DNA of 64,000 nt, taken from contig QPGO01000191.1 in the NCBI GenBank assembly GCA_008632985.1, positions 1-64,000 of the forward strand, written 5' to 3'. This DNA is from Psammoneis japonica. Its lineage: Eukaryota. The position numbers and the translations under genes were made by a program. Positions 16,005 through 57,150 of the stretch are shown piece by piece. Position 1 is the stretch's first letter, and each line of letters opens with the position of its first letter. Below the pieces are notes generated by a model. It was not told the origin of the DNA, made no database searches, and was given only the letters and a program-made list of their open reading frames with translations.

Positions 16005-16042
16005 ATGTGTGCTATAGCCATCTGTGCGACTTTTGCATACAT
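15953..16042 (+). repeat. 90-bp imperfect direct repeat, right copy
   Basis: 81/90 identity to 9919-10008. Confidence 0.9.
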
Positions 16043-24883: not shown

Positions 24884-25129
24884 GACAAGTAAAGACGCTC
24901 CTGTGTAATGAAGGACTATGTACGAGTGATCTTCTGGTTGCTAAGTTTCCGCGGTGTAGCACTTTCAACATCCAACATTACATTGCCATTTCGGTCGTCG
25001 TTCGTCGTCGTTGATGGCTGCGCTGAGCGCTGCGAGGCTGTCGGCTGTCGGCGGCAGTTTTTTCTCGCGCGACTTGAAGTTGTTTCCTCGCGCAAATTGA
25101 AAGTGCTCCGCATCACTACAGTTCACGAC

Positions 25130-38090: not shown

Positions 38091-39870
38091 GCTCACCCAT
38101 CTGGAGTGCGGTCTGGCCTTGTCGTGGGGCTTCAAAATTCTTTGGCTGCTTTCTTTTGTGCAGTGCTGGCTTCTCTGATTTGTTTGTCACATTTGTTGGC
38201 AGTGGTGATTCCAGAGAATGAGAGCTCTGATCCATCTGGAGCACTGTGTCTGGCCTTGTCATGGGGTTGCTTTTCTGCTGCAAACACTTCATTGACGACG
38301 TCTTTGGCACTTGTGCACTGTGCTTGAAGAACGAGTGCAAACAAACAAAGTGCAAATTGTGAGATTAAATTTTGCTCTGTGATTTTTGGTTTCTCCAAAC
38401 AAGCTCTCAATGGCCCAAAGCTTCTGCACTACTTCTGCAAACAAAAGGCCTTTCAGAGAATGCAGTCGTGACAACAGATTGTCCGAATGCGGCCGACTGG
38501 CATTGACACGTGAGATGTCAACATCATCTGTCAATCACATTTGCAATTTTTGACTTCTGATCAACTTTGTGTGATTGTTTTGTCCTTTGTGTGCATCCAC
38601 GGCTGTGGTGCGATTGACACATGTGCAGCGCACAATTGCAATTTTGTGTGTGTGACAGTTGCATGCTGCACTTGGCATGTCCCGACCAACCCTGCCACCA
38701 ATGCTGCAACCTGGGAAGCATTTGCCTCCAAGCTCAATGACTTTAATGTCACCTGGATCACAGGCCCCAGAAGCCACAAGTGAGCTTCATGGACCTCACA
38801 ATCTCACTCCAAGTCTCACACCTTCATGCCACCCACTGTGAAAAAGAAATGAGTTTGTGCATGTCCATCCCACCACACTCAGCTCACCCGCCTGGAGCAC
38901 TCACCGGCCCAATCACAGGCATGCTCTTTTGCTTTGAAAACCTCTGCTCTAACCAAGGAGATGATGCCAAAGCAAAAATGAAACTGCTCTGCCACTGACT
39001 GCAAGCCTGAGGCCACAAGCCCAGCAAACCACTGCCACTCTTCCACAAAGCATGTGCAAACCTCATCTTTGGCAATGCTGCCACAGCTGAAGAGCCCAGT
39101 TGAAGAACCCTGTCTTCTTGCACATCCCATGCCATCCAAATGACCCACCATCAAGCAAACTTTGGAAGCTCTGGAAAGGTGCAATGGCCCACCCTCTCTG
39201 CTCACAACCTCTCTCAAACCTCCGCAACCACGTGCAACAATGCATCAGACTCGATCACACCATTGTTGCTCTGCTCTGCAGTTGCTCACACAACCTTGGA
39301 AATTTGCTCTCATGCTGCAACCTTTGCATCTCACATGGCCCCCAGTTTCATCCTGCTGGATCGCAAACAGAGAGGCTGTTAAGAGAGAGAGAAAGAGAGA
39401 GAGAGATGAAGAGCAACACACGATTCGAACCATTTGAATCAATTGGGTGCCCAGTCTGCCCCTCACCCCCCAGATCTTTTGAGTGCAACAACTTCAACCA
39501 TGCAAACAACAGCAGCCAGCCACTGATGAAGCCACTGCAAAAGTCTCACTTTTCTGACTTTGGTGCCAACATTGTTGTGCCTGCTGTTCGCTGCAACAGC
39601 TGGACAAATGTCTGAACAAGTGGCTCCACCTTGGCCACCTGTGTCTTCTTGTTTGTCACATTTGACAGATTCAAGAGAGAGAGCTCACCCATCTGGAGTG
39701 CTGTCTGGCATTGTCATGGGGTCCCCCCATTTAAAAATCTTTGCTTTCTTCTGTGCCACACTGGCTTCTCTGATTTGTTTGTCACATTTGTTGGCAGTGG
39801 TTGCTCCAGAGAGAGAGCTCTCATCCATCTGGAGCAATGTCTGGCCTTGTCACGGGGTTGCTTTTCCACT
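38091..39870 (+). repeat. ~190-bp direct repeats (38091-38280 and 39683-39870) flanking the Penelope-like fragment; (GA)n microsatellites nearby
   Basis: Both copies share gctcacccatctggagtgc..ctggcttctctgatttgtttgtcacatttgttggcagtgg..catctggagca. Confidence 0.75.
38700..39340 (+). mobile_element. Penelope-like retroelement RT/thumb fragment, degenerate
   Basis: FMDLTISL..HATHCEKEMSLCMSIPPHSAHPPG, matching consensus LYEK.MNLY.YIPP.S.HPPG with Y->H/C; also FLHIPCHP.DP and HNLGNLLS. Confidence 0.7.
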
Positions 39871-40121
39871 TCAAAAATCTCTGCTCCAACCCAAAGATGG
39901 TGCAAAAGCAAAAATGCAAGCTTGCAAGCTGCTGCAAGCCTGACAAGCTGCTGCAGCTCTTCAAGCCATGGGCCTGCACTCTTCACTTGCAGCTCCCCCC
40001 CCCTCTGATGCTCACAACCACACTTGGCATTGAACTGGACTCACCTGCATGATTGTGCACAGCAGCCAAACCCACAATCTTGGCACAACATCCACTCATG
40101 CTGTGACCTTCCCATCCCCCC

Positions 40122-40133
40122 NNNNNNNNNNNN
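40122..40133. other. Assembly gap (N run)
   Basis: 12 N characters. Confidence 1.
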
Positions 40134-40537
40134 CCCCCTCTCCATGCACTGACAGTGGCCAAGAGAGAGAGAGAGAGAGCAGTGCATCTGCTTGGGTCAT
40201 GCCATTTGTTTGCTGAGAGCATGTGCAAGTGAGAGGAAGAGAGAGCTGGACTGCACGAGAAACTGCATTGAAAAAACAATCAAACAAATCCACTGACCTG
40301 TCTTCTGCTGGTCAGATTTTTTAAACACAATGACAGCAGCCAGCCACTGACAAAGCCACCACAAAAGTCTTGCTCCTTGCTTTGGCCCAACATTGTTGTG
40401 CCTGTCATTTGCTGAACAGTTGGACAAATGTCCAAACTGGCAGCTCCCACCTTGGCTGGTTTCACTCTTGTTTGTCACATGTTGCAGAGAATTGGCTGTG
40501 CTGATTCTGTTCATTTGTTTGAGTGAGAGAGAGAGAG

Positions 40538-40572
<35 letters not shown>

Positions 40573-41999
40573 CAGAGACAGAGAGAGAGACAGAGCAGTG
40601 CATCTGCCTGGGTCATCATGTCATTTGTTTGCTCAGAGTCTGTGCAACCTTCTGCAGCACCAGATCTTTCCCAACACAACAGCTTCAAGAACCATGTTGA
40701 CAACAGCAGCCAGCTCATCTGCAAAACATTTTCTCCACATTCAATGAAAGAGCAATTGACCAACACTTTGGCATGATGACAGAACATTGACACATTTTTC
40801 TCTGCCTCATTTTTACAATTCATTTTTACAATGCAAGGTGTGTGATGCTTCTTTGTCATTCAGCAAACAACAATTGTCTGAAATGTTCAGCTTGTTTGAA
40901 TGTGCAAAACAAAAGTGTGAAATGACAAGTTGCAAAGAACTGCAAAAAATCTTGTGATAAAAAATGCACAACTTGTTCTTCATCTGTTTTGATTTTGGGT
41001 TGTGTTTGCTGAGTTGTTGTTTGCTTTGTTCACAATTGTCTGGCATGCTCATGTGTGTGTGTCCTTGCTGTTGTTTGCACCAGAAACAAAGAGCCAACAC
41101 CGCACCTGTGCACAATTGTTTGCTGCTCATTTGCAGTTTGTCTGTTGACCAATGCATTGCAGTTTGCATTCTGTGCAGCTCACATTGCACTGACCAATTG
41201 TGACATTTGGTTTTTGCTGCCAGCCCTTGTTTGCGATCTGCCTCTTTCACCAAAATTGCTTCCTGCCTTCCAACCTTGACAACTGGAGACACTCATAATT
41301 TCTTGCATCTTGCCAGCTTCTTGCCCACCATCCCTTGATTTGCTGTCCCTTGACGTGTCATCTCCCTGCAGCTCAGCATTTGACAGAACATTGTGCTGTT
41401 GCACAACATTTGTGAAGACTTCATTGATCATTTCTGTGCCTCAGCTTTCTCACCTTTTTGTTGTTTTTTGCACAAAACAACCATCTGGCCAAGAATTTCT
41501 GCTGGCACTTTGTGTGCTCTTCTTTTGTTGATGACAACAAATGCAGCAAAGCCAATTGTGAGCATTGTGCTTCTCTTTTGAACATGTTTGACAAAACCTG
41601 TTTTGTTTCTTGTGCCCTCACCTTGTTGACATCATCCATTGTTCTTTCATCTTTTTTCAGACAACCAGTGTGCTTGCTTCACTTTGTCCCCATGTTCCTT
41701 TGTTGCGTTGGTGCATGGTGGCATTGCAAGTGTGCTGTGTCTTTTCAAATCATCAACTCATGTCAGCACCCACGGCCCCCTTTTTTGTGTTGCACCTGTC
41801 TGCGTGGGCTGCAAAGAATGAGTTTTCACTCACATGTTTTTTCCCTGCTTTTTTGCTTCAGTGTGGTTTTGAATTTTTTTTTGTTTTTTGGCAAAGGTGT
41901 TTCTGTTTGTGCACGCCATTCTTTGTTCTCACCTCTCAATGACATTGCTGTTGTGTCTGCATGTGTCACAATTCATTTTGAGTCTTGTTTGGCACTTTC

Positions 42000-44900
42000 C
42001 ATTCTTGCATGGAACACTCCATCTTGCTCACAATTTTCTGTTCAAAGATTCATTGACTTGCTTGCAACATCACCCTGTCTGAGATGCAGGAACACAGAGC
42101 TTTCATCTTGCACTCCTTCACTCCCCACAGCAACAGCACAACAGGTTTGCCACCAGGCTTTGTTTGTTTGCCATGGTGCCAAGAAGAAAACGAGCAAAGA
42201 CTCTGGCCAGGTCGATGAAGGTTGTGGTTTGCACCCCAGCAAACTTGTTGAGTTTGACACCATCCCCAGCTCATCTCATGATCTTGCCTGTGAATCAATG
42301 GAAAGTTTGTCAACCCTTCCCAACACCAGTCCACATTGAGGCTCCTCACTGGTGGGGTTCACACTTGGCCAGCTTTCTGCATCACGTTGGTTTCTCAGCA
42401 TCAGAAAAATTGTTGGACAAGCCAACAAAACTAAAAAAAAGAGCCTCAAATCCAACAAAATGAAGAGGCAACTCTGAACAAGGCCAAAATGATCTCTGAT
42501 CTCAAGGAAAAAGCAAAAATTTTGAGTTGCTGTCATGATGCAGATGAAGACATGGGCTTTTGGATGGTGATGCAGAGACCAAGAAATCCCTTGGTGAGCA
42601 GAAATTGTGAAACTCAAAAAGGACAGAATGGCATTGCATGGAAAAGTGAAACATCTGAAAGACTGCACCTCCAGTTTGAAACACAAGAAGAAGTCTGGCA
42701 GCAAAAAACAGCTGCAAAAATTGGAGGAGTTTCTTCAGTTTGTGTGCACCACTGCCTTTGGGAACCATCTGTCAATTTTCCAATTGCTCTTTGGACTTGG
42801 CTTTTCATCCAAGTTGGTGAGTGTTGCTTGGATCAATGCATCTGTCTCCATTGTTGCATTGTCTTTCTTTCCATTTCCCAACTCCCTCCTTTCTTCAGGT
42901 CATTGTCAACAAACAGAGTGTGGACAACACTATGGCATCTGCCACTTCATTTGACTTGACTTTTTGCAGTGCCTGCCATGTGTGACCTTGTTGTCAAACA
43001 TGCCACTGGTCAGCATCTCTGAAAAACAGGCAAGCACACATTTGACAGCCCTGCTTGTCATGCCTGTTTCTGGAACAAGAGGATGTTTCAGCCCAAGCTC
43101 TTCATGCTTTCAACCAAGAGTGCAGCTGTTTCAACCAGCTGCCAAAGAAGATCATCACTCCCTTTCTTCCAGTGGAGCACAGCACTTTGGAGCCAATGAG
43201 AAAACCCCACCAACATTTTGGACAAGTTGGAAAAAATTCATCATCTGAGTCTGAAACATTGTCAGAGCTGCCTGTTCCCTCAGAGGGCATTTGGCACCTT
43301 CTTCCAATGCCGCCATGAGAGAAGTGCCCCTCCCTTGCTGACTTTGGCAACACATGACAGTTGAGCAGGGCCTCAAGCAAGTGCTTCATGGTTGTCAAAA
43401 GATGAAACAAATGATGCACTTTCCTGGGCAGATGTCCATTGATGCCATTGACGCTGCCCCCAACATTTGGAATGTCCCAGAGTGCAGCTTCAACAAGGAG
43501 CTGAAAAACTCTCCTGAGCTGATGCTCTGGCAGAAGTCACTTTTTGCCATGTTCTCTTGACTCCACAACCTTGAATGAATCTTCAACCATCTTGGAAATC
43601 TGAGATTGACAAACAAACTCATGAACAAAGGCAGGGTCATCCTGAGCTTTTGGGGGGTGCCACAATCAGGGGCCATTCCAGAGAAGTTGGAGGAGTGAGA
43701 GCTGCAATGGCAAAACACATGTCATCACCCATGTGGCCTTTTGTGATGCCTGTTGTCATGCACAAGCAGAGGTGCAAATGATGAATGCCAAGTTTGTCAC
43801 CATGGTCAATCCGTGTTCCTTGCTTCACAGATGCAAGGGCTTTGGTTTCAGCAAAAACAAAACAAAGAGCATCATGGCAAAACTTGATGCAGCTCTCTTG
43901 CCAGTCCACTGTGTTCTGTCCTCAGTCCTTTCATCACAGGACTTGGGACACATTGGGGTCATGCCCAGAACAAACCAGCTCTTTGCTGGGTGGCAGAAAC
44001 AATTGTCAATGTCTCCAATCATGGTGCAAAGAACTGGCTGGGTGACCAGCCTCCCTGTTTGGTCGCAGAAGGTTGAGTTGTCAAAAGCAGGCAATGGTGG
44101 GGTGACAGTGAAGTGAGGGCGGGTCTGGTGGGCAGTCATCATCAAGTGTTTTCCAGGTCCTGTCACAGCTCTTAACAAGCTTCTTTCCACCAACCACTGC
44201 TGTTCAGAGGCCTGCAAACACAGTTGCTGGGATCTTTGGCACTGTGCTGGTGCTCTTCACAGAGTCACATGGCATCTTTGTGAAACTGCAGATCTTGGAA
44301 AAGACAGCAGGCATTGTAGAACAAAGAAGATTGGCGCACATGCATGGGAGGGAATTCAGGACCAGCATGCCTTGGCAAGGAGGTGGGCTGGCACAAGGAA
44401 GACACTTCTTCTTCATTCGGCTCATGGTTGTTGTGCACAGGACAGAATCTTGCTAAACTTGCCATTGCTCTGGGGTGCACAGTGGCAGAAGGGAAGAATG
44501 TCTTGGCACAAGTGAGCCAGAAGGTGGTTGTTTCTCATCATGACAACAAGGTCCTCTTCCACAGGATGAAGCTTCTTTGTCAAAGAACTCCTCATTTTCA
44601 GAGCATGGCTGTCTTGAAGAAGAGATGCAATGGAGCCAAGGTCCTCAATGTTGATGGGATCTGCAAACTCAAAGGAACCATCTGAGGTCAAACCACACAC
44701 ATCTTCATTGTGCAAAGGCTGAAACAAAGATTCAAAGTTGTCTTGAAAATGCCTGACCCCATCATTGCTGTGAACTGTGGGTGCATCAGAGTCATCACCT
44801 GATGATCACCTGTGTCATCAACAGAAGAGTTGCTGCAAGAAAAAACACTGGGAGATTCCTTTGGGCATCCACCAGGGAGGAAAGCACAATGGTGGGGTCA

Positions 44901-45000
44901 AAATGATGCATCCATGAGACAAACACTCAAAGCAATGTTGCTGAGGAGTGTGGATTGGAGGCTGTTGCCAGCTGAGGTGCTGAGGCTGCTCTCCATCACA
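42000..45000 (-). mobile_element. Degenerate DNA transposase remnant, Plavaka/CACTA-like
   Basis: Fragments QPVLCTMIGDID..KSWFVLGM, FCHDALCFVF..HLHLCLCM..G.DDM.CHCSSH..DC and HHLFHL resemble Plavaka-type transposases after reverting C/H to Y/R. Confidence 0.45.
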
Positions 45001-46309
45001 GTTGCATCTTCCTGATGAGGTGATGGAGTTTGCTCCACAAGCTGCAGAGAAGATGCCTTCCTTGAAAAGAAAGGAACATCATTGAGATCATCAGCAACAT
45101 GACAAGAGGGGCTCATTGCAAAATGTCAGTTGAGAGAGCTCTTGGAGGCAAAGGTTGCAAACAAACATTTGGAGTTGGGATGCTGGTGCTCAGCCGTTGT
45201 CAATGAAAAGGAGCGCAAAATGGAGAACAGTGAGTTTCTTGTCAGAGGGAGCACAACTCAAGCAAAACAAAAGAGAGTGGGGCTTGGGTTGCAAACTGCC
45301 AAAGCACAACATTGGAGCATTCCTAAAAACACAAAAACACAAATTTGTGACAAAGTTGAGGACAGAAATTCTGGCGCAAAAAAGCACCAATTTGCACACA
45401 AATGCACAAATTTGTTTTTGACAAGTTGGCCTCATCGCACAAATTTTTGATGACACACAAATCATGGCACACAACCCAATCAACTCACACAGTTGCTTGC
45501 AAGAAATGAATGATGTGCCACTCTCTCCACCATGCATCCATGACATGGGGCTGCCATCATCATTTGTTGCTTTCATGGAATGGCCCAAGTGCACATGATG
45601 TTTGATGGAATGGGGTGGGACTGCTGTGTTTCTGAGCATCAGTTGCTGCCCTCTCAAGAAAGGTGGGCACACAGGATTGTGTGCATGTGTTGGCAGTTGG
45701 CAGTTGGCATCAACTGCATTGGCAATCATGGGACTGCAGTTTGTTGCTGCATTTGCAATGGACAGAGTGCACTTGTTGTCCAACTGAGTGGTTTGCAGCA
45801 TGTGCAAAGACAGTGACAAAACATTGGTTTCTCATGGGATTGACCACTGCCACCATGCTCCTCTCCAACAGCCATGCAAGTGTTGCTCACAATTTGTTTC
45901 TCTCTCTCACACACTTTGCACTCATGCCATGTCATCCAACACTGTGCCCAGCTGCGACAGTGACAACGACTGCAGTCCAGGCCTGAGTGGCAATCACCAT
46001 GCTGCAGCAGGCAACTGCACACCTCCTCATCTCTTCATGCTGGCAGTGTGTGTCTGGAAGCAGTGACAGTGTCTCCTCATGTCATCACACCAGTGCAGTG
46101 GATCCGGTGGCAGTGATGGAAATGAAAAAGCATGAAAGTCAAGCAAGCCAAAGGGTTTGATGAACATCCCAAAGAAGAAAAAAAAGACAAAGGTCACCAC
46201 TCTAAAGCATGGTGGCAAAAGCAGAGGTGAGAACAAGTGGATCTTCCATTGTGCACTTTTTGCTCAACTTTGCACTTCTGATGCAATGCCACTGTCTGTT
46301 TCCTTTTCC

Positions 46310-49300
46310 ACACAGGAAATGGTTTCACTCAGAAGGAGACTGATGTTCTTCCAGACATCCCAGAAAACAATCTGCCTCTTTGTCATGAGGAATGGAAGTG
46401 TGTTGCCGCTGATCACATGGCATGTTTTCCTGACAACAGCCATGCCACAGATTCATTGAAGCACAAGCTTTGGCCTCTGTGCTGGCACAAGGCCCTGACT
46501 GGTGACCCAATTTGCCTTCCCAAAGAAGTGCTTTTCTACGTGGCTTCACATTGATGGTTTCTACGTGGAATTCTACGTGCGTTTTGTGCTGCGTTTTCGT
46601 CACCATGGTGACCTCTCCTCTGCTGCAGGCTGAGCCTCCCGGCAACTCTCCTCCTGATCCTCCCCATGAAAATGGCGAGTCTCCTCCAACCCCTCCCCAT
46701 GCTGGAAACGGCAAATCCAAACATGACAATGCCAATGAGATTGCCCTCAGGTTTGAGTTTACCTCCGATGACCCCAATGCTTCCATGGCATCAGCTGTGG
46801 GACACACGATGGTGTCCCAAACCCTGCAACAAAAGGCCACTCAAGATCCTCTTACAAACAAAATTTCAACATTCTCCAACAGTGGCAAGACCATTCCCAA
46901 AATCAACATGGTTGATTGGATGACTGGACTTGCTCATTCTCAACACTTCACAATTCATCGCATCGGCGGATCTTGTTGGTGCAAGCCAACGCATGTAATT
47001 GCCCACCGAATCAGGACTGCTCTCACCCTCTCTGACATTCAAGACATTCCATTTGTCACCAAAACTCTCAAGGATAACTCCATTTTTATGTGCCGACATG
47101 AGTGGGATGAAACTGTTGCCGATCTTGTCCACATCGTGCAAATCTCTGAACATCTTCCCCGCCACTGCTCTGCGGATGTTGTGATTAAACGTCTTCAGGC
47201 AGTTGTTCCGAACAGTTGTCGTGCCAAGCTCCCGATCCATCTGATCCCTCAGAAAATCACTTCACCAACGGACAAGTCCATCCGTGCAGATTTTCACTCC
47301 ATTGAAACCCCATGAGACAAAGCAAGGGAAGTTGTCAAAGTCTTGTTGGAAATTCTGAAGGAGCACCCCCGATTCTCAATTCTTTCCCGCTGGAGATTCT
47401 CTGCAATGGAAGCAGAAGCCTGTGAGAAAGAGGTCGAACACCAACACAAACTTGCTTCCATGACATGCGCAACTCCCCTGCTGCACCACACCGCAGACAT
47501 GAATTTTTGCCTTCGCCCTCAGCTCATCCTCTTGGAAGGTGTCCATGACATCATTCCATCCAAACGTCAGTCCATGATTTCATGCTACAACGTGTCAGTG
47601 TCCAAGATGTTTCACAAGAAAGTCCAAGAACTTCTTCCTCCAACTCTTCAGAGCATGGCAAATGACTTGCCAGAAGATGCCTCGCCAATGTCAGGTTCTC
47701 CACAGCCAATGACACAGGGCCTCTCCGATGATGTGTCTGATGCGGCAAACTTTGTCACTTCTGCAAGTGTCCGCAGCTGGACTTCTTTGGACATTTCAGA
47801 AATTTCTCAAAACAGCATTCCTCCTCCACCTCCAGCCCCCTCAGATGCACCTGCCCCACCGGTCCCCAACAATGCAGGTGTTCACCCGTTCAAGACATTT
47901 GCTCAAGCACTAAATTCAGCACCGACCAATCAGCCTGTCACACCTGCAACCTCCGACATTGCTGATCATGCTTCGGACCTTGAAGATTTGCATCAGGAAA
48001 TTGCACGGATGCAAAAGGAAAATGAGATTCGGCTTGCCAGAATTGAAGAACAACATCAACAGTCCATGGCTGCTCTCCAGGAAACATTGGAACAACAGCA
48101 TCAGACACAAATCACAAGCCTGGTCCAGCAACTGCAGACAGTCATTCAAGAGTGTCTTCCTCTGCCAGATTCCCTGTCTGACTCATGCTTGTCCCCAGCT
48201 GGCAAGAAACCTGCAGCATCTGCTCCTGCCAGCTCTTCCTCGGAGGAACCTCCTGATCTGTCCCTGATGGATGCCACTCAAGACGATGCAAATTTTTAAC
48301 AGGGCGAACCAAGTCGTCATTTTCGCCCAACAACACCAACGCAGATTTACAATCTCTCTCTCAGCCTCCCTTCGAGAGAGCAAAGCCTTGCCATGAGGGG
48401 TGATCCCCTTTTGCTCACTGATTTTCCCTCTGCTGAGCAGGGGACTCCACCTGATGAGATGCCACTCCCCAGTTCTAACCCTGAAGACACATTGCCTCTG
48501 GCAGCCGATCCTGCCGGTTCACCTGCTCCCCCATCTCTGCAACATGTGGCCCAACAATGGAACAACCTTCTTGATGGCCGATGTTGTGACCTTCCTTCCC
48601 AGACCATTGATTGTTCTAACTTGCGTGCAAATGACCCCATTGGCGATCATCTGGGCCCCAAAGAACCTGACACGACCCGACTGTGTGCTTTCAATGCAAA
48701 CGGATGTTCCTGCAACTCTCTCGGTGGCAATTTCAATTCCCATTGTCAAGCAATCAATGAACTGCAGGCAGACATCATTGGCATCTCTGAGACATGCTTG
48801 GATGCCACTCAACCGCAAATTTCACAGACCTGCAGACAGGTGGTGCATTCCTCCCTCCATCATGGTCGGCTGACTTTGTCAGCATCTTCCATCCCCTTCA
48901 CTGCCCCTTGTGAGCCAGGTGGAACTGCCACAATCTCCTGCAATTCCTTGGCGTCTTGCTGCCGAACACAGAAGATGGATCCCCTGGGCAGATGGTCAAT
49001 CCAGATTTTTGATGGGAAGCAAGGCAAACAAATCATGTTTGTTTCATGTTGCAGAGTGTGTGCCAACAGAACATCCGCTGCAGGCAAGACTGCTGCATGT
49101 GCTCAACAAGTTAACTTGCTCCGCGCAGAGGGTCGCGCTCACCCTGAACCCCATTGAGCCTTTTGTGAGGACCTCTCACAACTTTTGGAAGCATTTTTGT
49201 ATGAACCCAACAGAGAGGTGGTCCCATTTGGTGACTTTAGTGCGGACTTCCGACATGATGCGGACCTCTTGGCTCGCATGGCGATTCGCTTTCGACTCTC

Positions 49301-52300
49301 TGATGTCATGCACAGTTGCACGCAAGACATGGACTTCGCCACCTGCCTTTGTGGCTCCAGAAGGCTGGGTTGTGTGCTGGCCACCCCTGGCACCCTTCAT
49401 GCAGTCACACATTGCGGCTGTGAACCTTTTGGATGCTGTGCGTCTCGTCAGATCATCGTGCTTGCTTTGTCGATTTCGATGCGATGCAGCTCTTTGGCAA
49501 CACCTCGGTGGACGTCCCGAAGCCTGCTCACTGCACACTTCAAACCAAATTGCCCAAACAGGCGACCGCTTGCCTGGAAGCAATCGGCCCCATGCTGCTG
49601 AGCTGCGACGTTTTGCAGCACAGTGAAGATCTTCTCGCCTCCGAGACTCCTGACCCCCTGCTTGCGGAACGTCCAGACCGTGACATGACTCAGTTTTGCA
49701 TTGCAGCCGCCAAGCATTGTTGCCAATTTCATGAACCCGAGTGGTCTCTGAAATTAGCAGATCTCTGGCGAAAAGTTTTTGTTCTCTCTCGACTGCTCTC
49801 CATGTTCAAAAACAGGGTCAATTTTGTCCCAGCGATCATTGGAGAACGGTCTCAACTCAAGTCTACCTTTTTGATCCCAACAACAATGGCAGAATGCCAA
49901 ACCGCTTTACGACAGGCACAAAAAGAATGCAAGAAAATCGCCAAAGACAGTCCACATCACAGAGAACGTGAGCGGGATTCTCGCATGGCGGAACTCGACT
50001 TAGAGGGTGCCACGGCCTCCAAGATGCAGGCCCGGATTCTCCGAAATGTGCATTGTGCAGAAGAAACTGACCAAGCATTCCGCAAAGTTGACGCATTTAA
50101 GGACAAAGACAGTTCAAGTGTCACTGACATCCAGGTCCCCAAAGATCCTGCTGCTGATCCTAAAACTTGCGAACATTGGATTGCCATTGATGCCCCAAAA
50201 GATGTCGAGGCTGCTCTTGCTTCCCAGAATCAGAAGCACTTTGGTCAGGCTCATGGCACTAGACCCACTGTTCTGCCATTGTCCGTAGACCTTGGTTGTG
50301 AAGGCAACACTGTTGTGGCAGAATTGATGCTCGACGGAGACTGCGATGCCTTTAACATGACCGAAGCTGCTGCCTTGCTCGCACAGCATCTCCGTCTCCG
50401 GCAGCTGTCTCCAACTTCCTCACGGAGTCCGCCCTTGGGAAAAAATTTAAAACTTGGTCAGAACCCACCTCCACATCCCTGAAATCTGGGTTGCACCTTG
50501 GCCACTGGAAGGCAACGTGTGCGAAGCACGTTCACTCGTCCACTGCGGATGAACTTGGTGACCCCACCGACAAACGTCTCGAACTGGACAATGTGCAAGA
50601 AACACCACAGGCCATTCGTCTGAACCTCCTAAATTGTGTGCTCAAATGGGGTTGCTCATGCAATTGATGGAGAGACATTGTGAATGTTGTGATTTTCAAA
50701 GAGCCCAGGAACAATGAAGTCTGCCGGCTGCGAGTCATCCACATCTGTGAAGCAGACTTCCAATTGATCACAAGTGTTAAATGGCGTGCTCTTGCACAGC
50801 ACATGGAACATCAGCGCCTCTACAATCCAGGGATGTGTGGCACCAGAGCCTTCCTTTGTGCCCAGACACCTGTCTTTTTGGAAGCGCCAATGCCAGAAAT
50901 TTCCAGAGCATCCAGAAAAACCCTCATTGCCAGCGACGACGACTGCACCTCATGCTGCAACCGCAACATCCCGGCTTTGATGGCAGCAATGTCAATGAGC
51001 CTTGGAATGGACCCAATGGCAGAGGCAGTTGCAATTCACACTGTTCACTTGGCATGGCACTGGTTGCTCACCCTTCTGGGAACAGCGGAAGATTCTTGCT
51101 TGCATTCATCCAAGCACCCCATTTGTGGAACTGGTCAAGGCAGTGGAAACTCCCCCTTTCACTGGAACAATCTTTGCAGCTTGCTCTTTGACATCTTTGA
51201 TGCCAAAGCTCATGGTGCCTTTCTTTGAATCCCCAGACAGATCACATCAGCTGCGCATTTTTGCAAGAGGGTGTGTTGACGACACTTCAAAACAAGTGAA
51301 TGATTTCTGTGTCTCGCCTCAACCTTCAGCAGACAAACTGGCATTGCATCTTCAACATGACAACCAATTATGGTGTGATCTGCTGCACACTGGTGGCCAT
51401 GAATTAGAGCCACCAAAATGCTCCTTCCACGTTGTTGAATGGGAGTTCTCCGAACATGGTGAACCAAATCTAAGACCGCACAACCATGACCTGGATGTTG
51501 AAATCTTTTCAGCAGATCAGACCTCCTCATGATGCAGCACTCAACCATCCCCGTTTGCTCCCCACAAGACGCTGGGTCACTGTCCTTCTCCATCAGGAAA
51601 GCCAAAGAAACAGCTTCAAGTCCTTAAAGACAAAAGTGGCGGGAAGGCCCTTTTTGTCCAATCTGTTCCTCTGGATCGCGTCAAATCATGGCGGCATCGC
51701 CATGCGTGTCACTTGCCCTCAGCAGCATTTGTTCTTGCCAACTCTCACTTTGCCATGAAAGAACTCTTGAAAATTCAACAACAAGCTGTGAGAGTTACAT
51801 TTGCCAAGTGTGGATGTGACAGGAACACAAAATGTGCCATTCTGTTTGGCCCTCAATCGCTGGGTGGCAGAGGTTTCCGGTCTCTGGACGTGGAGCAAGG
51901 TGTCGCACAGATGCAGCAACTCTTGCATCACACCCATGGAGCGCAGTCACTCCTGCAAGACGATCAGCCATGCAAAGCTGTGCATGTTGCCATCTCATGG
52001 ATCCAGTTGCAAGTTGGCACTGGGGTGAGTTTTTTGAAGGACGTCAGTGCTCCTCACCCACACTGTGAATCTCTGTGGTTTGTGTCCGCAAGGTCCTTTT
52101 TGCTTCAAGTGAATGGCTCCATTTGCTTGTCCGACGACGGTGCACTGCCTCTTCAGCACAACAATGACCAACACTTGATGGATGATGCTCTCGACATGCC
52201 CCAATTCTCAGCTCAAGACATCCGCTGGATAAATTGTTGCAGGATGCACCTCAAGGTTCTCACGGCTTCAGACATCACCCTTGCTTGTGGTTTGCTGCTC

Positions 52301-55150
52301 AACAAATCAAAAATGCATGGAGATCCCACCTTTCTCAGTGGCATCAGCACGCTCAATGACATCAAACAAGAAAAACCTTGCCACAGAGCATGGCGCCCTT
52401 GGATTGAAGTTTGTGAGTCATTGTGCCACCCGAATTCAACGAGACTGAAAGATCCTTTGGGCGATTGGCTTCTGCCCCCTTCCAAGATGAGGATGAGTGC
52501 GAGTGCATGCTGCTCTCCAGCAGAATCTTGCCTGCATGTCAGATCTCCAACAGGACACGACATTTTCTCTGTCGTCATGCACACAGCTGAGGATTTGTTT
52601 CCCTCAGAGACTGTCCCTTGTCCTTCCAACGAATCCTTCCCGGTCGAAATCAGTGCGTCCCATCACGGTCATTGGCAATTTTCCCAGCATCGTGTGGTTC
52701 TGGTGCTAGAAACACCCCCCCCCCCCCCTCTTCCAGATTGTTTCCATGATCGTCTTCAGGCGTTGCCTTGATGGGAAGCAGCTCTCTTCAGAGACATGAC
52801 TTTCCATGTGCCCCTGAACTCTCTGATCGATTTGTTGCTGACAGATCATCTCACTGCAGGAAGTGATGGCTCCATCCCACACCAGCAGGCCACTTTCGGA
52901 TGGACTGTTACGATCCAGGGCACTCCGCTGGTGGACTGTGCTGGCCCTGTGTTTGGCAGGTTGCCTTCATTGTGCCGGTCGGAGGCATGTGGAGTTCCAT
53001 CGATTTCAAGGTTTCTGTTTCGAGTCCTCAAGTGTGGCAAAGTTTCCCATTGCTTTGGAATGGACAACTGGTGTGACAACAAAGCCTTGGTTAAAGTGCT
53101 GCAAAGACCGCATTCTTCCCACCCGTCTGTCGATCCGATCACCCAAGACAATCAAGACAAAGATTACAATCTGCGCCATCATGACGCCAATGTGCTGTCA
53201 TCGGATTGGGATTTTGCAAACGAGACACTGCAGACTGCTGCGAACATTGCAGATCAGTTGGATCCCTCCTCTGCTGGTCAAGTGCCTCTAGTCAAATGGG
53301 TTGAAGGTCACCAAGATCGTCATGCACCAGTCGAAACACTGCCTTTAAACGCAAAAGTAAACATCCGTGCAGACAAGTTGGCTGGACAGCATCAACGTCA
53401 AATCTCAGAGGACACGACAGAGGTCATTCCACTCCCGCACTGCCAAGCTTGTCTTTCTCTTTCCAATGGTGCTGTTGCAGCGGGCCTCAAAGCCTTGGTC
53501 TGGTGCACAGCAACAGCCCCTGCTCTCATGCTCTACACACAAGAGAGAAACCAATGGGACGACACTGTCACGTCATTGATTGATTGGAACGCACATGCGA
53601 CTTTGGCAAAACGGTTTTCTAAACAACATGTCTCCACGGTCAAACTGATTCACAAGCTGTCACCTGCCAACAAGATCACCCACAGGCACAACCCAGTCCG
53701 CCCTCACCATTGTTTGTCTTGCAAGAGCCCCATGGAAGACAGAGACCACATCCTACGATGTCCTGCCAATGAAGACTGGAGACGCACATTTCTTCAGGGT
53801 TTGAAGAAGTGCTGCGACAAGATTGACACCATGCCTCCCCTTCGAGACTTCCTGTTGTCGTCCTTGGAACAATGGTTCCACAACAAAATGATGCACGCGA
53901 CAGATGCCCCCCCACTTCTCAGGTCATTGTGGCAAGCTCAGACTGGCATTGGATTTCGTCAGATTTTTAATGGCCGTTTCTCCTCCCTGTGGAACACATT
54001 TCAAGAGATCCACCTTAGAGAGTCGGGTTCACTTGAGCAATGTCGTAAAGAGAATCGTCCTCCCCCAGTGTGGGCAGTTCAAATTGGAACACACATGTGG
54101 CGGTCTTGGTGGGAGCTGTGGGAAAGACACAACAAACAGGTTCACGGACACGATCTAGATGCACGCAAATCCTCACAACGACGCATCGCAGAAGCAGAAC
54201 TCACCGCTGTTTGTGACAAATGGCAAGAATGTCTTGCAAAGGACAGAGCAGATCTCATGGATGCTTTGGAGGATCACTTGGCACACGGCACATCGCAGAT
54301 TGTGAATTGGGTGTCAATGATCAAACCCCGCCTTAAAGCCAGCATCAAAGAAGCAAAGAGTCTCATGCTCCGAGGCACACATTCCATTGCCAGTTGTTTC
54401 GGGAGGGCATCACCTTCTGGTGACGCCTCTGTTGGCTAGCCCCTGTTTCCCTTCTGCCGCACTAGCTCAGTTCACTGGAAGTGTGGGTTAGCCGGCGTCG
54501 GCATGGCTGACAAAGGAGTGGTGGCACTTGCAAAAATAGATCTGGTTTTTTTGCCTTCCCAAAGAAGTGAGCCATGCCAAGAAAATCCAACATGACATGC
54601 AGAAAAAGGCAGACATGTCAGAGGCAGAGGATGATGGAGGTGCTTTTTGGTGCTCAGGAGATGAAGGTGACAAAAACAATGACAAAGTGCAGCATTGTGA
54701 GCTCAACCTGGCTGCCACCCATGGTGTTGCTGGCACCCCTGTTGCTGCCAACACAAGTGACTCTGATGATGAGGAAGAGGAAGCAGTGCACCCAACTCCA
54801 ACAAAAGAGTGCACACAGGAAGCTCTGGGGACAGCGGCCATCAATCAGAGGAAGTCTGCCACCATGAAGACTTCCAACAAGGATGGAGGGAAAACAGCCA
54901 ATCAAAAGGAGCCTGGCACCTGCCAGATTGTCAAGAAGCACAGGAAGAAGGGAGGTCCAAGTGCCAAAAGGAAAAAGCACAGCTGCAGCGCTGATCCTGA
55001 AGAAAGTGTCAGCAAAGATGATGTCACAAAGTTCCTCCAGATGAGCATGTTGTGGAGGATGCAAGGCCAGAGAGAACATGAGGAGGAGCCTGGCGGCAAT
55101 GCTGGCAATGCCCCATCCAATGGTGCCAGATTGACATCATCAGCTTGGCA
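46310..55150 (+). pseudogene. Myb-like/DUF6818-type ORF (often TE-associated), split by the LINE: 46310-46530 + 54570-55150
   Basis: GNGFTQKETDVL..NNLPLCHEEW..DSLKHKLW..TGDPICLPKEV continues in register after the LINE as SHAKKIQHDMQKKAD. Confidence 0.6.
46531..54549 (+). mobile_element. Full-length ~8.0-kb non-LTR retrotransposon (Ambal-like: ORF1; ORF2 APE-RT-RNase H), degenerate, with a 20-bp TSD
   Basis: TSD TTTGCCTTCCCAAAGAAGTG at 46511-46530 and 54550-54569. ORF1 ~46604-48299. APE motifs FNANG, IGISET, DPLGRWS, FGDF, SDHR. RT motifs KEPRN..RLRVIH, DDDCTSCCNR, GTGQGSGNSP, GCVDD. RNase H motifs GSDGS, RSEACG, WCDNKAL, WVEGHQD, NIRADKLA. Confidence 0.92.
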
Positions 55151-56444
55151 GGTGCCATGGGCTCAGAGATCACGCATGACCCAGCATCAGTGAATTGTTC
55201 CTTTGTGAGCTTGCTTGGAGCTGCTGCCAACACCAACAGCCACCAGTGCATGCCATGCAGGAGGAGATGGTGCTGTGTCATCAGCTTGCAACTCCCCAGC
55301 TGCCGCCACCAAACCATCAATGAATCAACTGGCTGGCTCAAGCTCACTCAGATCCACACAAAATGACATGGAGGGTGCCATGGATGAGAACAAAACAGCG
55401 GGTGTCCAGCGTCAGCGTAACAGCTTTTGTGACCACAATGAATCAACCGGCCAATGCAAGGTTGCTTGGAGCCATGCAAAACAAAACACAGAGGGTGCCG
55501 TTGACAAGAAAAAACAACAGGCATCTGGCGTCAGTGCAGCAGCATCTCACAACTGTTGTCAGAAGTGTGGTTTGCAATCAAACTCAAAAGCAAGTGTGGT
55601 TTGATGAAATTGTTTGCATTGACACATCACTTTGTTTCTCTCAAAAGTGCATTGATGGATGTGATCTTGGAGGAACAATCACAAAGCATCCGCGCAATGA
55701 CGCAGAGGGTGCCACAGATGAGAGCAATGCAGCAAGCATCTGGTGTCAGCATGACTGCATTTTGTGACTGCTGTTGCAAGTGTGCTTCACAATTGAACTC
55801 AAAAGCATGGTTTGATGAACTCATTTGCCTTGATGTGGAGCTGGGAAATGTGCGCACTCTGAATCTGGTCAAGACTGACACATCCACCCCAAACACTGCA
55901 GAGAAGAAGCACGATCATGATCTTCAAAACAATCTTCCTTTCTGCACTGCCCTCTCTGTTGTGCCAAAGTGCAACAAGAAGCCAGTGAAAACCAAAACAG
56001 GAAAACCAGGTCAGAAAGAGGGCCATGAAAACAAGTGAGAAAAACTTGTGTTTGTGAGTGAAGTGACACACCAGAAATTCACACTGGCTGTGCCATCTTC
56101 AATTCATCAATGGAGCACATTTTTTGCATTGCAGATGTGTTTGCAGACAGACATTGATGATTGTTGTGTGTTTTGTCATTTCAGAACACCAAAAACAACA
56201 CAATGTTTCCAACATGCAACACAAGAAAACACTGGAAATGACACATTGTTGTGATGCACTTGCGCTGCAGAGAAAGGGTTGTGCTGCAAACCAAAAGTTG
56301 TGTTGTTGTGCCTGCTGTCAATCTGCAGCACTTGGATGAACATCAAACAAGTGACTTCTGCCTTGGCTGGTTTCTGTTCTTTGTCAGTCACATTTGATGG
56401 GTGGTTGGCCATGCCTGCCAACTCATCATTTCATTTAAGAGAGA

Positions 56445-56487
<43 letters not shown>

Positions 56488-57150
56488 CTGGCAAAGATCA
56501 GCAAAGAAAACAGAGTCAAAACTCTCAATCCATTGTTGTGGCTTGCAGCCACAGCCAACAATGCCAGAGCTGCCCCATGGACAAAGATGGCAAGAGAAGA
56601 GAGAAATTTCTTTGAGAGAGACAGCCAGCTGCACTTCTAGAAAGCCCTCCCGCCAGCATGCAGTGTGCCTCTGCACTTGCCTGAAGTCATTGCCAGCTTC
56701 AAAGAGTGGTGTGGTTTGTGAGAGACAACCCAGGTGTGCCAACAGCAGCACAACCACCCAACAACCACCCCCTCATCCTTGCCAAGCAGCACCACCCAAC
56801 CCGCCCACCCCCTTGAAAGAAAAGCAAGCACGGGGAAGCTGCAGCCAGGTGGCAAGTGTGTCCTGCCTGTGGCACACTTGCTCAGGGCACATTGATGAAT
56901 TGTGCACACTCACACTGGAATCTGGAGAGAGTTGCTGCTGCAGTCTTGGCTTTGCTGGCAAGCAATCACCAGTCCTCCAAGAACAAAGAGTTTGCAACCA
57001 GGAGGAACAGCCCATTTGTGTGGCACAGAATGAGTCATGTTCTGTCAAGCAACAAGACAGTTTTGTCACCCTTGTTTGCTTTGAGACAGAAGTGCCTGGT
57101 GACAAAGCAGTGATACAGAGATGGGCATCCTCAACAGCAAGTGTGATTCA
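55150..57150. repeat. Degenerate TpA/CpG-depleted repeat sequence with internal ~120-bp repeats and a (GA)n tract at ~56438-56487
   Basis: Recurring gagggtgcc..gagaa/gagc..gcatctgg.gtcag units between ~55370 and 55800; essentially no TA. Confidence 0.55.

What the first reader, a model, noticed from the sequence alone, without database searches (positions are those of the whole stretch)
46511..54569. Nested LINE with a perfect 20-bp TSD acts as a clock: TpA loss precedes CpG loss
Seen: the LINE is bounded by identical TTTGCCTTCCCAAAGAAGTG copies and interrupts a Myb/DUF6818-like frame, so it is younger than its flanks. It has lost most TA but retains many CG, and so does the Copia element. 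The older flanks (40100-46500, 54570-57100) have lost both. Inference: TA conversion is faster than 5mC deamination, which fits an active enzymatic process better than slow drift.
Basis: partly seen in the sequence, partly recalled or inferred. Interest (0 to 1): 0.75.

Follow-up and report, generated by a model that had tools for sequence, protein, structure and literature searches.

The report
TpA-erasing hypermutation of diatom transposons
A dead jumping gene nested inside older junk DNA of a diatom shows that this genome rewrites nearly every TA step in its transposons to TG or CA, and does so before the usual loss of CG steps, a signature so far measured directly only in one unrelated alga.

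Summary
An 8,019-bp full-length but dead APE-type LINE (46531-54549, +) sits between perfect 20-bp target-site duplications, inside a ~19-kb decayed repeat island (~37.8-57.15 kb) of a pennate diatom. TpA/CpG observed/expected is 0.11/0.51 in the LINE, 0.02-0.03/0.08-0.13 in the flanks and 0.54/1.04 in host genes; CpG steps about 8-fold exactly at both junctions. Polarity is shown three ways. A normal/decayed paralogue pair has TA->CA/TG at 38 of 58 sites, with 1 reverse. Family-conserved Tyr codons became Cys/His in the LINE (9 of 17, 1 kept) and in the Copia (14 of 21, 3 kept), while Copia Arg is kept at 27 of 33. The process is strand-symmetric, so it acts on DNA, and it prefers 5'-T-A-Y-3': RTAY sites are almost gone and YTAR sites survive best in all five blocks. 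TpA loss leads CpG loss in every block, but it is front-loaded and context-dependent, so it is not a simple clock. The TSD holds no TA or CG and dates nothing. The 'Myb/DUF6818' label is unsupported. The same TpA->TpG/CpA hypermutation was measured in Bigelowiella natans (2026 preprint, which never mentions CpG). Six literature searches found no diatom report. Verdict: new member of a known kind; the enzyme is inferred, not shown.

The parts
46511..46530 (.). Left copy of the 20-bp target-site duplication
   Evidence: Exact match, one of only two in the window, 0 expected by chance. It contains no TA or CG.
54550..54569 (.). Right copy of the 20-bp target-site duplication
   Evidence: The neighbouring bases differ from those of the left copy, so the repeat is exactly 20 bp.
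46531..54549 (+). Full-length, dead non-LTR retrotransposon (LINE), 8,019 bp. TpA O/E 0.11, CpG O/E 0.51.
   Evidence: Composition. 4,828 protein relatives at E<=1e-3, the best at 4.5e-203. Collinear with residues 13-1929 of the 1,934-aa relative P0122. No poly(A) at the 3' end.
46535..46579 (+). Three copies of TCTACGTG at the extreme 5' end of the LINE, each keeping both its TA and its CG
   Evidence: Read; TA positions 46537, 46562 and 46574. Function not tested. A protected promoter or binding site is a guess.
48612..49430 (+). APE-type endonuclease region of ORF2 (window frame 3)
   Evidence: tblastn of P0122/P0127/P0129. Pfam Exo_endo_phos lies at residues 56-322 of P0127 and 159-297 of P0122. 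Pfam does not detect the domain in the window copy itself.
49448..51219 (+). Middle of ORF2 including the reverse-transcriptase core (~50,780-51,310), split by a frameshift near 50,392-50,407
   Evidence: tblastn segments in frames 2 and 1. The RT core is placed by projecting the weak, sub-threshold RVT_1 hits of P0121 (381-547) and P0127 (765-937).
51224..54400 (+). C-terminal ~1,060 residues of ORF2 (frame 2). RNase H-like strings are seen by eye near 52,850-53,320.
   Evidence: tblastn and phmmer. The RNase H reading is by eye only; no profile confirms it. Conserved-column test: 17 Tyr columns give Y1, C5, H4.
37800..46510 (.). Older decayed repeat DNA, left flank of the LINE: TpA 0.03, CpG 0.11. 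It holds (GA)n tracts and a 12-N gap at 40122-40133.
   Evidence: edge between TA 37724/37858 and 38366. No Pfam family in six frames.
54570..57150 (.). Older decayed repeat DNA, right flank of the LINE: TpA 0.02, CpG 0.13
   Evidence: TA is dense again from 57114, CG from 57200.
1..2185 (+). Copia-type RT fragment cut by the window start, with one in-frame TGA. TpA 0.225, CpG 0.894: an early-stage victim.
   Evidence: RVT_2 at E 1.7e-16. 21 conserved Tyr columns give H7, C7, Y3; 33 Arg columns give R27, K4, X1.
2687..4066 (-). Copy A: RVT_3/RNase H-bearing sequence of normal composition (TpA 0.66, CpG 1.12), used as proxy for the ancestor of copy B
6608..8023 (-). Copy B: decayed paralogue of A (75% identity). 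TpA 0.13, CpG 0.68.
5400..6600 (.). Small, strongly depleted block next to copy B (TpA 0.014, CpG 0.20)
25000..26400 (.). Depleted island just upstream of the ELP1 gene (TpA 0.09, CpG 0.38)

Best explanation
The window comes from a pennate diatom. Its transposon DNA is degraded by two separable, DNA-level transition processes, and both end in TpG/CpA.

(1) A TpA-directed process converts TA to TG or CA on either strand. It strongly prefers an A in 5'-T-A-Y-3'. It acts early and fast, is confined to silent repeat DNA, and has sharp borders against genes.

(2) Ordinary CpG decay (CG to TG/CA) is most simply explained as deamination of 5-methylcytosine in methylated transposons, and it proceeds more slowly.

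The 8-kb LINE inserted by target-primed reverse transcription into a repeat that was already depleted, duplicating 20 bp. It was then hit in place. It has lost nearly all T-A-Y-type TpA and about half of its CpG, and it carries 3 frameshifts and about 11 in-frame stops.

Most likely mechanism (inferred, not shown): an enzyme that edits A to inosine in DNA, or an equivalent base modifier, is recruited to silenced chromatin. This would be the same kind of TpA hypermutation measured in mutation-accumulation lines of Bigelowiella natans.

Shown: the anatomy, the direction of change, the strand symmetry, the context rule, and the order of TpA loss before CpG loss. Inferred: the enzymatic nature, the targeting by chromatin state, and 5mC as the cause of the CpG decay.
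For: Host:
- Acetolactate synthase is 58-68% identical to its 120 listed relatives; the named ones among them are diatoms.

Nested LINE:
-.

Polarity:
- Pair A/B: 58 TA in the normal copy give CA 20, TG 18, kept 7. The reverse change (TG/CA to TA) occurs once. 85 CG give TG 15, CA 14, kept 40.
- LINE against 30 relatives, 306 conserved columns: 17 Tyr columns give Cys 5 (TGY), His 4 (CAY), Tyr 1. For comparison Trp is kept 18/21, Asp 16/18, Gln 11/12, Cys 6/6.
- Copia against 40 relatives, 430 columns: 21 Tyr columns give His 7, Cys 7, Tyr 3. Arg is kept 27/33 (21 of those 27 as CGN) with one CGA->TGA.
- Tyr is 0.1% of the LINE frame and 0.7% of the Copia frame, against a median of 3.4% in 150 LINE relatives and 3.0% in 120 Copia relatives.

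Strand symmetry:
- CA ~ TG products and His ~ Cys outcomes.
- RTAR ~ YTAY retention once a sense-oriented TE null is used.

Context rule:
- Survivors observed/expected in the LINE: RTAY 1/98, RTAR 7/75, YTAY 17/67, YTAR 31/45 (chi-square p = 8e-17). RTAY is lowest (tied with a one-target class in two blocks) and YTAR highest in the Copia, 5400-8500, 25000-26400 and the flanks too.
- The order holds against the TE-specific null.
- Pair A/B: A->G is 27/62 at TAY against 12/50 at TAR, p = 0.045.

TpA before CpG:
- True in all 7 depleted rows. The Copia has 42% of its TpA left but 86% of its CpG.

Targeting:
- The domain edges are sharp to within ~150-500 bp.
- Copy A, 2.5 kb from its decayed paralogue B, is untouched.

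Separability of the two processes:
- 12 of 80 environmental Copia loci have CpG < 0.5, and 11 of those 12 have normal TpA. One locus (L064) has both signatures.

Precedent:
- In B. natans, 230 of 231 de novo mutations in two viral inserts were TpA->TpG/CpA, at about 6e-7 per site per generation (preprint 10.64898/2026.01.13.699255; results and discussion read).
- CpG methylation of diatom transposons by DNMT5a: PMC9998398 (passages).
Against: - No enzyme, no methylation data and no de novo mutations were seen for this organism. The process is therefore inferred from end-states in a single 64-kb window.
- 'Retention' values use host genes, or environmental Copia elements, as stand-ins for the ancestral composition.
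- Two direct tests of the T-A-Y rule are weak. The product-by-flank tests in the A/B pair gave p = 0.76 and 0.24. The Tyr-codon test gave -1=R: Cys 5 / His 9 and -1=Y: Cys 7 / His 2, p = 0.089.
- The fingerprint was absent from 0 of 150 LINE relatives and 0 of 120 Copia relatives, and present in only 1 of 80 environmental loci. It is therefore not general among diatom-like elements.
- A mutation-accumulation study of Phaeodactylum reports an ordinary GC->AT bias and no TpA effect (PMC6604790, passages).
- The higher CpG of the LINE could partly reflect weaker methylation rather than youth.
- The one-target TpA classes do not decline in proportion to CpG, so constant-rate kinetics fail.
Confidence: 0.6

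Rival explanations
1. Thymine rather than adenine is the modified base. A TET/JBP-type dioxygenase hydroxylates T in 5'-R-T-A-3' on silenced transposons (5hmU or a derivative), and the modified T occasionally pairs with G, giving T->C.
For: By sequence this is indistinguishable from A editing, because an A in T-A-Y on one strand is the partner of a T in R-T-A on the other. In dinoflagellates 5hmU preferentially replaces T in TA and TC, and it takes part in transposon silencing (PMC11572971, discussion passage).
Against: T->C at TpC is not raised in the A/B pair (TC->CC 5 of 95, against TT->CT 7 of 99). Whether 5hmU is mutagenic at the required rate is not established here. No 5hmU data for diatoms were seen.
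Confidence: 0.13
2. The TpA changes are collateral damage of repair. Frequent deamination of 5mC in methylated transposons triggers patch repair by an error-prone polymerase of the Pol eta type. From recalled knowledge of immunoglobulin somatic hypermutation, that polymerase makes A->G errors at WA motifs. Most CpGs are restored while nearby TpAs are lost.
For: It would explain why both signatures share the same silent domains, and why TpA can fall while CpG is still intact, as in the Copia. The slow YTAR class tracks CpG decay at a ratio of about 0.5-0.7 in four blocks.
Against: The WA motif predicts a raised ApA->ApG rate. In the A/B pair, AAN sites change at 0.04-0.16, no more than CAN or GAN sites. 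11 of 80 environmental Copia loci show strong CpG decay with normal TpA, so CpG decay does not by itself cause TpA loss. In B. natans the hypermutation is exclusively at TpA.
Confidence: 0.1
3. RNA-level A-to-I editing of the element's transcript before reverse transcription. Copies would then arrive already mutated.
For: ADAR-type enzymes favour a U before the edited A (as stated in the preprint's discussion). The LINE and the Copia both pass through RNA.
Against: Editing of the sense transcript would give TA->TG only. Both TG and CA products occur in equal numbers. The non-coding flanks and short fragments are the most depleted. Depletion grades with nesting order, so it accumulates in place.
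Confidence: 0.03
4. There is no dedicated process: context-biased neutral drift, GC-biased gene conversion or selection against TpA in non-functional DNA.
For: TpA is under-represented genome-wide (0.54 in host genes), as in most organisms.
Against: Depletion reaches O/E 0.02-0.03, with 0 of 135 expected RTAY sites left in the flanks. The borders are sharp. Gene conversion would favour all W->S changes and oppose CpG->TpG. The Copia lost two thirds of its conserved Tyr codons with almost no other damage. 79 of 80 environmental Copia loci keep TpA at 0.44-0.90.
Confidence: 0.05
5. Assembly or base-calling artefact: a heavily modified base at TpA in repeat DNA is systematically misread.
For: Reads could not be inspected. 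Modified bases are known to cause systematic long-read errors (recalled).
Against: Each site is cleanly either TG or CA, with sensible codon outcomes (Cys/His). An independent environmental contig (L064) shows the same end-state. In B. natans the mutations were called from Illumina data (methods passages).
Confidence: 0.03

Closest known systems
TpA-specific hypermutation of integrated viral DNA in Bigelowiella natans (Mettrop et al., bioRxiv 10.64898/2026.01.13.699255, 2026)
   Same: The product spectrum is the same (TpA->TpG and CpA, both strands). The process is confined to particular silent or foreign regions next to a normally mutating genome. TpA-poor, CpA+TpG-rich clusters occur, and the low-TpA coding sequences there are enriched for reverse-transcriptase, endonuclease-RT and DDE domains.
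   Different: The host is a stramenopile (diatom), not a rhizarian. The targets here are retrotransposons and old repeats, not giant-virus or virophage inserts. Erasure goes much further (O/E 0.02-0.11, against Rho 0.45 for the NCLDV insert). A flanking-base rule (T-A-Y fast, T-A-R about 12 times slower) and the ordering relative to CpG decay are described here; the word CpG does not occur in the preprint. Here only end-states are seen, no de novo events. Its supplementary tables could not be opened, so a context preference may already be recorded there.
Repeat-induced point mutation (RIP) of Neurospora and other fungi
   Same: A genome defence that riddles transposons with transitions in a dinucleotide context and leaves skewed dinucleotide ratios.
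   Different: RIP turns CpA into TpA, so TpA rises, which is the opposite direction (recalled; RIP as C->T: abstract of PMC7296669 in the listing). RIP hits both copies of a duplication, whereas copy A here is untouched beside its decayed paralogue B. The B. natans target is single-copy.
CpG decay of methylated transposons (5mC deamination); diatom TE methylation by DNMT5a
   Same: CG->TG/CA in silent repeats (29 of 85 CpG in the A/B pair). Diatom transposons are CpG-methylated (PMC9998398). 12 of 80 environmental Copia loci show this decay.
   Different: It explains only the CpG half of the signature. The methylation status of this locus was not measured.
Polynucleotide adenosine deaminases: TadA/ADAT2-ADAT3 and ADAR
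   Same: The enzyme reads the base 5' of the target A, with a preference for U/T (ADAR preference as stated in the preprint). The natural TadA site U-A-C (recalled) matches T-A-Y.
   Different: These are RNA editors. DNA editing is reported only for a few ADAT2 proteins (cited in the preprint). ADAR and fungal mRNA editing favour a 3' G (recalled), not a pyrimidine. No deaminase gene was examined here.
APOBEC3 editing of retroelements in vertebrates
   Same: Deaminase-based mutational inactivation of retroelements.
   Different: APOBEC3 causes C->U on single-stranded cDNA, which is strand-asymmetric and happens before integration. Here the change is A:T->G:C, strand-symmetric and made in place.

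Membership tests
APE-type non-LTR retrotransposon (LINE) | Reverse transcriptase of the non-LTR type | tested here: met
   ORF2 region: 4,828 relatives, the best at E 4.5e-203. The relatives P0121 and P0127 carry weak RVT_1 hits below Pfam's cut-off. The window copy itself is not recognised by Pfam. Membership therefore rests on homology to the family.
APE-type non-LTR retrotransposon (LINE) | N-terminal apurinic/apyrimidinic-type endonuclease | tested here: met
   Exo_endo_phos is above cut-off in P0127 (47.7 bits) and P0122 (27.7 bits). That region aligns to window 48612-49430.
APE-type non-LTR retrotransposon (LINE) | Target-site duplication and no terminal repeats | tested here: met
   Perfect 20-bp TSD. 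The self-BLAST of the window found no LTR-like repeat at the ends. There is no poly(A) tail, which many LINE clades lack (recalled).
TpA-directed hypermutation (B. natans type) | Mutations are TpA->TpG / CpA transitions | tested here: met
   38 of 58 TpA in the A/B pair. Tyr->Cys/His at 9 of 17 and 14 of 21 conserved columns.
TpA-directed hypermutation (B. natans type) | Restricted to particular foreign or silent regions; the rest of the genome is normal | tested here: met
   Five depleted regions lie against a genic background of 0.54, with sharp edges. This was tested only within this 64-kb window.
TpA-directed hypermutation (B. natans type) | Rate orders of magnitude above the background, seen as de novo mutations | not testable with these tools
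   No reads, strains or genome were available. The rate is inferred only relative to CpG decay.
TpA-directed hypermutation (B. natans type) | Carried out by an ADAT2-like DNA adenine deaminase (a hypothesis in the preprint as well) | not tested
   No genome was available to search for candidates. The T-A-Y preference is compatible but not diagnostic.
Fungal RIP | C->T at CpA, giving a gain of TpA | tested here: not met
   TG/CA->TA occurred once against 38 in the other direction. TpA falls to 0.02-0.2.
Fungal RIP | Both copies of a duplicated sequence are mutated | tested here: not met
   Copy A has normal composition (TpA 0.66, CpG 1.12) while its paralogue B is decayed.
Myb/DUF6818 gene as the interrupted host frame | Detectable Myb/SANT or DUF6818 domain in the flanks | tested here: not met
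   No Pfam family in six frames at E<=0.01. Nothing of the kind in nine flank ORFs at E<=10. Heavy decay could hide it.

The most novel reading that the evidence does not exclude
Diatoms carry a chromatin-targeted DNA base-editing defence that erases TpA from transposons by deaminating the A of 5'-T-A-Y-3'. It would be the same system that hypermutates integrated viruses in the rhizarian Bigelowiella natans. That would make TpA editing an old, SAR-wide (or repeatedly acquired) genome defence comparable in reach to fungal RIP. It would come with a readable three-speed record of transposon age (RTAY, one-target TpA and YTAR alongside CpG), and elements such as L064 may be evolving around it.
Probability: 0.35. 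Interest if true: 0.85.

Novelty: new member of a known kind. Interest (0 to 1): 0.64.

Why it matters
Until a 2026 preprint on one chlorarachniophyte, no eukaryote was known to defend its genome by A:T->G:C editing at TpA. Finding the same signature, pushed almost to completion, in the retrotransposons of a diatom would mean several things.

- The process is not a curiosity of one alga. It occurs in a second major lineage, one of great ecological weight and, for some species, with genetic tools.
- The T-A-Y context rule gives a concrete biochemical prediction for the enzyme.
- The ordering against CpG decay shows that the two decay routes are independent, and that TpA editing acts first.

Practical consequences follow.

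- TA->TG/CA never creates stop codons and it removes TAA and TAG. Edited transposons therefore keep long open frames in all six frames and will be mispredicted as genes.
- Profile searches fail on them. Pfam found nothing in this 8-kb LINE.
- Tyr-poor, Cys/His-rich 'orphan' proteins in algal gene sets may be edited transposons.

Tried and rejected
There was therefore no read-level check of other copies, of expression or of assembly accuracy.
- Pfam on the long + strand ORFs and on all six frames of 38000-59000, read through with X at stops: nothing. The long ORFs are a by-product of the loss of TAA and TAG, not genes.
- Pfam at E<=10 on nine flank ORFs: only chance-level hits.
- Word-based protein search with the open 555-aa C-terminal ORF: none of 7,765 candidates scored E<=1e-10.
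- First metagenome scan with the Copia ORF alone: 42 pattern matches, none confirmed. The second scan, with an alignment, gave 80 loci.
- Earlier notes of this scan: nothing on this genome, by sequence or by words. The eight findings listed concern phages, organelle genomes and a bacterial operon, and do not bear on this finding.
- LINE and copies A/B as one family: rejected (BLASTP E 2.9).
- An apparent strand asymmetry (RTAR more depleted than YTAY on the sense strand): rejected as an artefact of using a strand-mixed host-gene null. It vanishes with a sense-oriented transposon null.
- Fingerprint in relatives: 0 of 150 LINE relatives and 0 of 120 Copia relatives are Tyr-poor.
- One alignment run timed out and was repeated with a faster setting and 30 sequences.
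- RIP, RNA editing, gene conversion or drift, and artefact were considered as explanations; see the rival explanations.

Full report
WHAT WAS CHECKED

The 20-bp word TTTGCCTTCCCAAAGAAGTG occurs exactly twice in the window, at 46511-46530 and 54550-54569. No further match appears at up to two mismatches, and none is expected by chance. The bases just outside the two copies differ, so the repeat is exactly 20 bp and encloses 8,019 bp.

- Insert: TpA 0.11, CpG 0.51, TpG 1.66, CpA 1.48.
- Left flank 40100-46510: TpA 0.03, CpG 0.08.
- Right flank 54570-57100: TpA 0.02, CpG 0.13.
- Host genes in the same window: TpA 0.54, CpG 1.04.

The insert differs from the flanks at p = 5e-35 for CpG and 3e-9 for TpA. 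In 500-bp windows CpG jumps 0.07->0.52 and 0.63->0.06 exactly at the two junctions.

The depleted domain as a whole runs from about 37.8 kb to about 57.15 kb. Its edges against the neighbouring genes are sharp.

WHAT THE PIECES ARE

The host is a pennate diatom. The intron-free acetolactate synthase gene is 58-68% identical to its 120 listed relatives, and the named ones are diatoms (Bacillariaceae, Mayamaea, Cylindrotheca, Phaeodactylum, Nitzschia). The rest of the window holds ordinary housekeeping genes.

Pfam sees nothing in the insert in any frame. A full HMMER search with the ORF2 region, read through with X at stops, nevertheless finds 4,828 relatives, the best at E = 4.5e-203. Intact relatives of about 1,930 aa carry an Exo_endo_phos endonuclease and weak RVT_1 hits. 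The insert is collinear with residues 13-1929 of one of them, over 48612-54400, with three frameshifts.

It is therefore a full-length, dead, APE-type LINE. It has about 2 kb of 5' sequence and no poly(A).

The flanks could not be identified. The open frame across the junction carries little weight, because TAA and TAG are almost erased from this DNA.

DIRECTION OF CHANGE

Three independent tests agree.

1. The window contains a natural experiment. A 1.4-kb sequence of normal composition (copy A, 2687-4066) has a decayed paralogue (copy B, 6608-8023) at 75% identity. Of 58 TpA in A, B has CA at 20, TG at 18 and TA at 7. Only one change goes the other way. Of 85 CpG, 29 are TG/CA and 40 are kept.

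2. In 306 columns conserved among 30 LINE relatives, 17 are Tyr. The insert has Cys (TGY) at 5, His (CAY) at 4 and Tyr at 1. Trp, Asp, Gln and Cys are kept at 18/21, 16/18, 11/12 and 6/6.

3. In 430 columns conserved among 40 Copia relatives, 21 are Tyr. The window's Copia has His at 7, Cys at 7 and Tyr at 3. Arg is kept at 27 of 33, 21 of them as CGN codons, with a single CGA->TGA.

Tyr makes up 0.1% of the LINE frame and 0.7% of the Copia frame. The medians are 3.4% and 3.0% in the relatives, none of which is below 1.6%.

The equal yield of TG and CA, and of Cys and His, shows that both strands are hit. That rules out editing of a sense transcript and points to DNA.

A CONTEXT RULE

Surviving TpA are not a random sample. 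Against the host-gene background the LINE keeps:
- 1 of 98 expected RTAY sites
- 7 of 75 RTAR sites
- 17 of 67 YTAY sites
- 31 of 45 YTAR sites (chi-square p = 8e-17)

RTAY is lowest (tied with a one-target class in two blocks) and YTAR highest in the Copia, the 5400-8500 block, the 25000-26400 block and the flanks too (flanks: 0/135, 4/102, 4/92, 13/62).

One rule explains this: the target is the A of 5'-T-A-Y-3'. RTAY offers such an A on both strands, RTAR and YTAY on one strand, and YTAR on neither. From the LINE numbers the favoured target is lost about 12 times faster than the disfavoured one.

Direct support comes from the A/B pair. Strand-collapsed A->G is 0.42-0.45 at TAC/TAT, 0.22-0.26 at TAA/TAG and 0.04-0.16 elsewhere. 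TAY against TAR is 27/62 against 12/50, p = 0.045.

Two further tests point the same way but are not significant:
- Product by flanking base in the pair: p = 0.76 and 0.24.
- Fate of conserved Tyr codons by the -1 base: purine gives Cys 5 / His 9, pyrimidine gives Cys 7 / His 2, p = 0.089.

An apparent sense-strand asymmetry disappeared when 79 sense-oriented environmental Copia loci were used as the null. The order of the classes remained.

ORDER AND KINETICS

In all seven depleted rows, TpA is more depleted than CpG. Fraction of background TpA / CpG remaining:

| Block | TpA | CpG |
|---|---|---|
| Copia | 0.42 | 0.86 |
| Copy B | 0.25 | 0.65 |
| LINE | 0.21 | 0.49 |
| 25000-26400 | 0.16 | 0.36 |
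| 5400-6600 | 0.03 | 0.19 |
| Left flank | 0.06 | 0.10 |
| Right flank | 0.04 | 0.13 |

So 'TpA first' holds. It is not a simple two-rate clock, however.

Split by class, the slow YTAR sites track CpG at a ratio of about 0.5-0.7. The one-target sites are already about 75% gone in the Copia, where CpG is intact, and thereafter fall only about as fast as CpG. This suggests an early burst, further hidden context classes, or both.

The perfect TSD cannot serve as a timer, because it contains neither TA nor CG.

TWO SEPARABLE PROCESSES

Among 80 Copia loci retrieved from metagenomes, 12 have CpG O/E below 0.5. Eleven of those 12 have normal TpA (for example L041: TpA 0.53, CpG 0.01). One, L064, shows the same double signature as here: TpA 0.04, CpG 0.20, Tyr 0.9%, 24 of 25 Arg codons AGR, and no TAA or TAG in any frame.

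CpG decay is thus widespread and does not bring TpA loss with it. TpA loss is a rarer, additional process.

Copy A lies intact 2.5 kb from its decayed paralogue. The process therefore does not strike both members of a duplication, as RIP does. It looks targeted by chromatin state rather than by homology (inference).

MECHANISM

Shown: DNA-level, strand-symmetric TA->TG/CA with a T-A-Y preference, confined to repeat DNA, running ahead of CG->TG/CA.

Inferred: an enzyme, most simply a polynucleotide adenine deaminase acting on DNA, is recruited to silenced repeats. CpG decay by deamination of 5mC proceeds alongside it; diatom transposons are methylated by DNMT5a (PMC9998398, passages).

The best precedent is the bioRxiv preprint 10.64898/2026.01.13.699255 (outline, results, discussion and term searches read). 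In mutation-accumulation lines of Bigelowiella natans, 230 of 231 mutations in two integrated viral regions were A->G or T->C. All of them fell on TpA, at about 6e-7 per site per generation and only in some lines. TpA-poor coding sequences there are enriched for RT, endonuclease-RT and DDE domains. The authors propose an ADAT2-like deaminase.

That preprint does not mention CpG at all. Its supplements could not be opened, so whether a +1 base preference is recorded there is unknown.

Rivals that remain open:
- Modification of T in R-T-A, which sequence alone cannot tell apart. In dinoflagellates 5hmU prefers TA and TC and takes part in transposon silencing (PMC11572971, passage).
- Error-prone patch repair of the Pol eta type. 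This is weakened because ApA is not raised and because CpG decay occurs elsewhere without TpA loss.

RNA editing, drift or gene conversion, and artefact are unlikely, for the reasons given under the rival explanations.

NOVELTY

Six full-text searches turned up no report of this signature in diatoms. The Phaeodactylum mutation-accumulation paper reports an ordinary GC->AT bias (PMC6604790, passages).

The finding is therefore a new member of a kind known from a single recent preprint. What is added:
- a second, distant lineage
- retrotransposons as targets
- near-complete erasure of TpA
- a flanking-base rule
- the relation to CpG decay

LIMITS

Everything rests on one 64-kb window and on end-states. 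No genome, reads or methylation data were available. Ancestral compositions are proxies. No enzyme was examined.

Noticed in passing
window 46535-46579: The first 50 bases of the LINE carry three copies of TCTACGTG. Each keeps both its TA and its CG although the element is otherwise stripped. This may be a protected binding site or internal promoter with an ACGT core, or chance.
   Followed up: no
L064:101-1789: An environmental Copia relative (about 42% aa identity) has the same end-state as the window's old repeats: TpA O/E 0.04, CpG 0.20, no TAA or TAG in any frame, Tyr 0.9% and 24 of 25 Arg codons AGR. Yet it has only one in-frame stop in 563 codons. Of 19 Tyr positions of an intact relative, 6 are Phe and only 3 are Cys/His. 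It could be a lineage adapting to TpA editing rather than a plain wreck.
   Followed up: partly
L041, L062, L063 and 8 further loci among L001-L080: Eleven of 80 environmental Copia loci have CpG O/E below 0.5 with normal TpA (down to 0.01 in L041). CpG-only decay is the common fate of these elements elsewhere.
   Followed up: partly
window 2687-4066 vs 6608-8023: Two paralogous RVT_3/RNase H-bearing sequences lie 2.5 kb apart. One has fully normal composition and an open 161-aa RNase H ORF; the other is decayed. Whatever targets the process does not act on sequence duplication alone.
   Followed up: partly
window 38000-57050, all frames: TA->TG/CA cannot create a stop codon and it destroys TAA and TAG. 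Stop-to-stop ORFs of 100-555 aa therefore fill all six frames of the island (66 ORFs of 100 aa or more between 39.0 and 58.5 kb). This is a trap for gene predictors.
   Followed up: yes
window 25000-26400: A 1.4-kb depleted island (TpA 0.09, CpG 0.38) lies directly upstream of the start of the ELP1 gene (20639-24940, minus strand). It may be an old transposon fragment in a promoter region.
   Followed up: no
window 38020-38093, 40511-40596, 56426-56489; gap 40122-40133: (GA)n tracts recur at three places in the old flanks on both sides of the LINE. A run of 12 N marks an assembly gap in the left flank.
   Followed up: no
window 9919-10014 vs 15953-16048: A 96-bp direct repeat (88.5% identity) lies between two genic regions of normal composition. 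Its nature is unknown.
   Followed up: no
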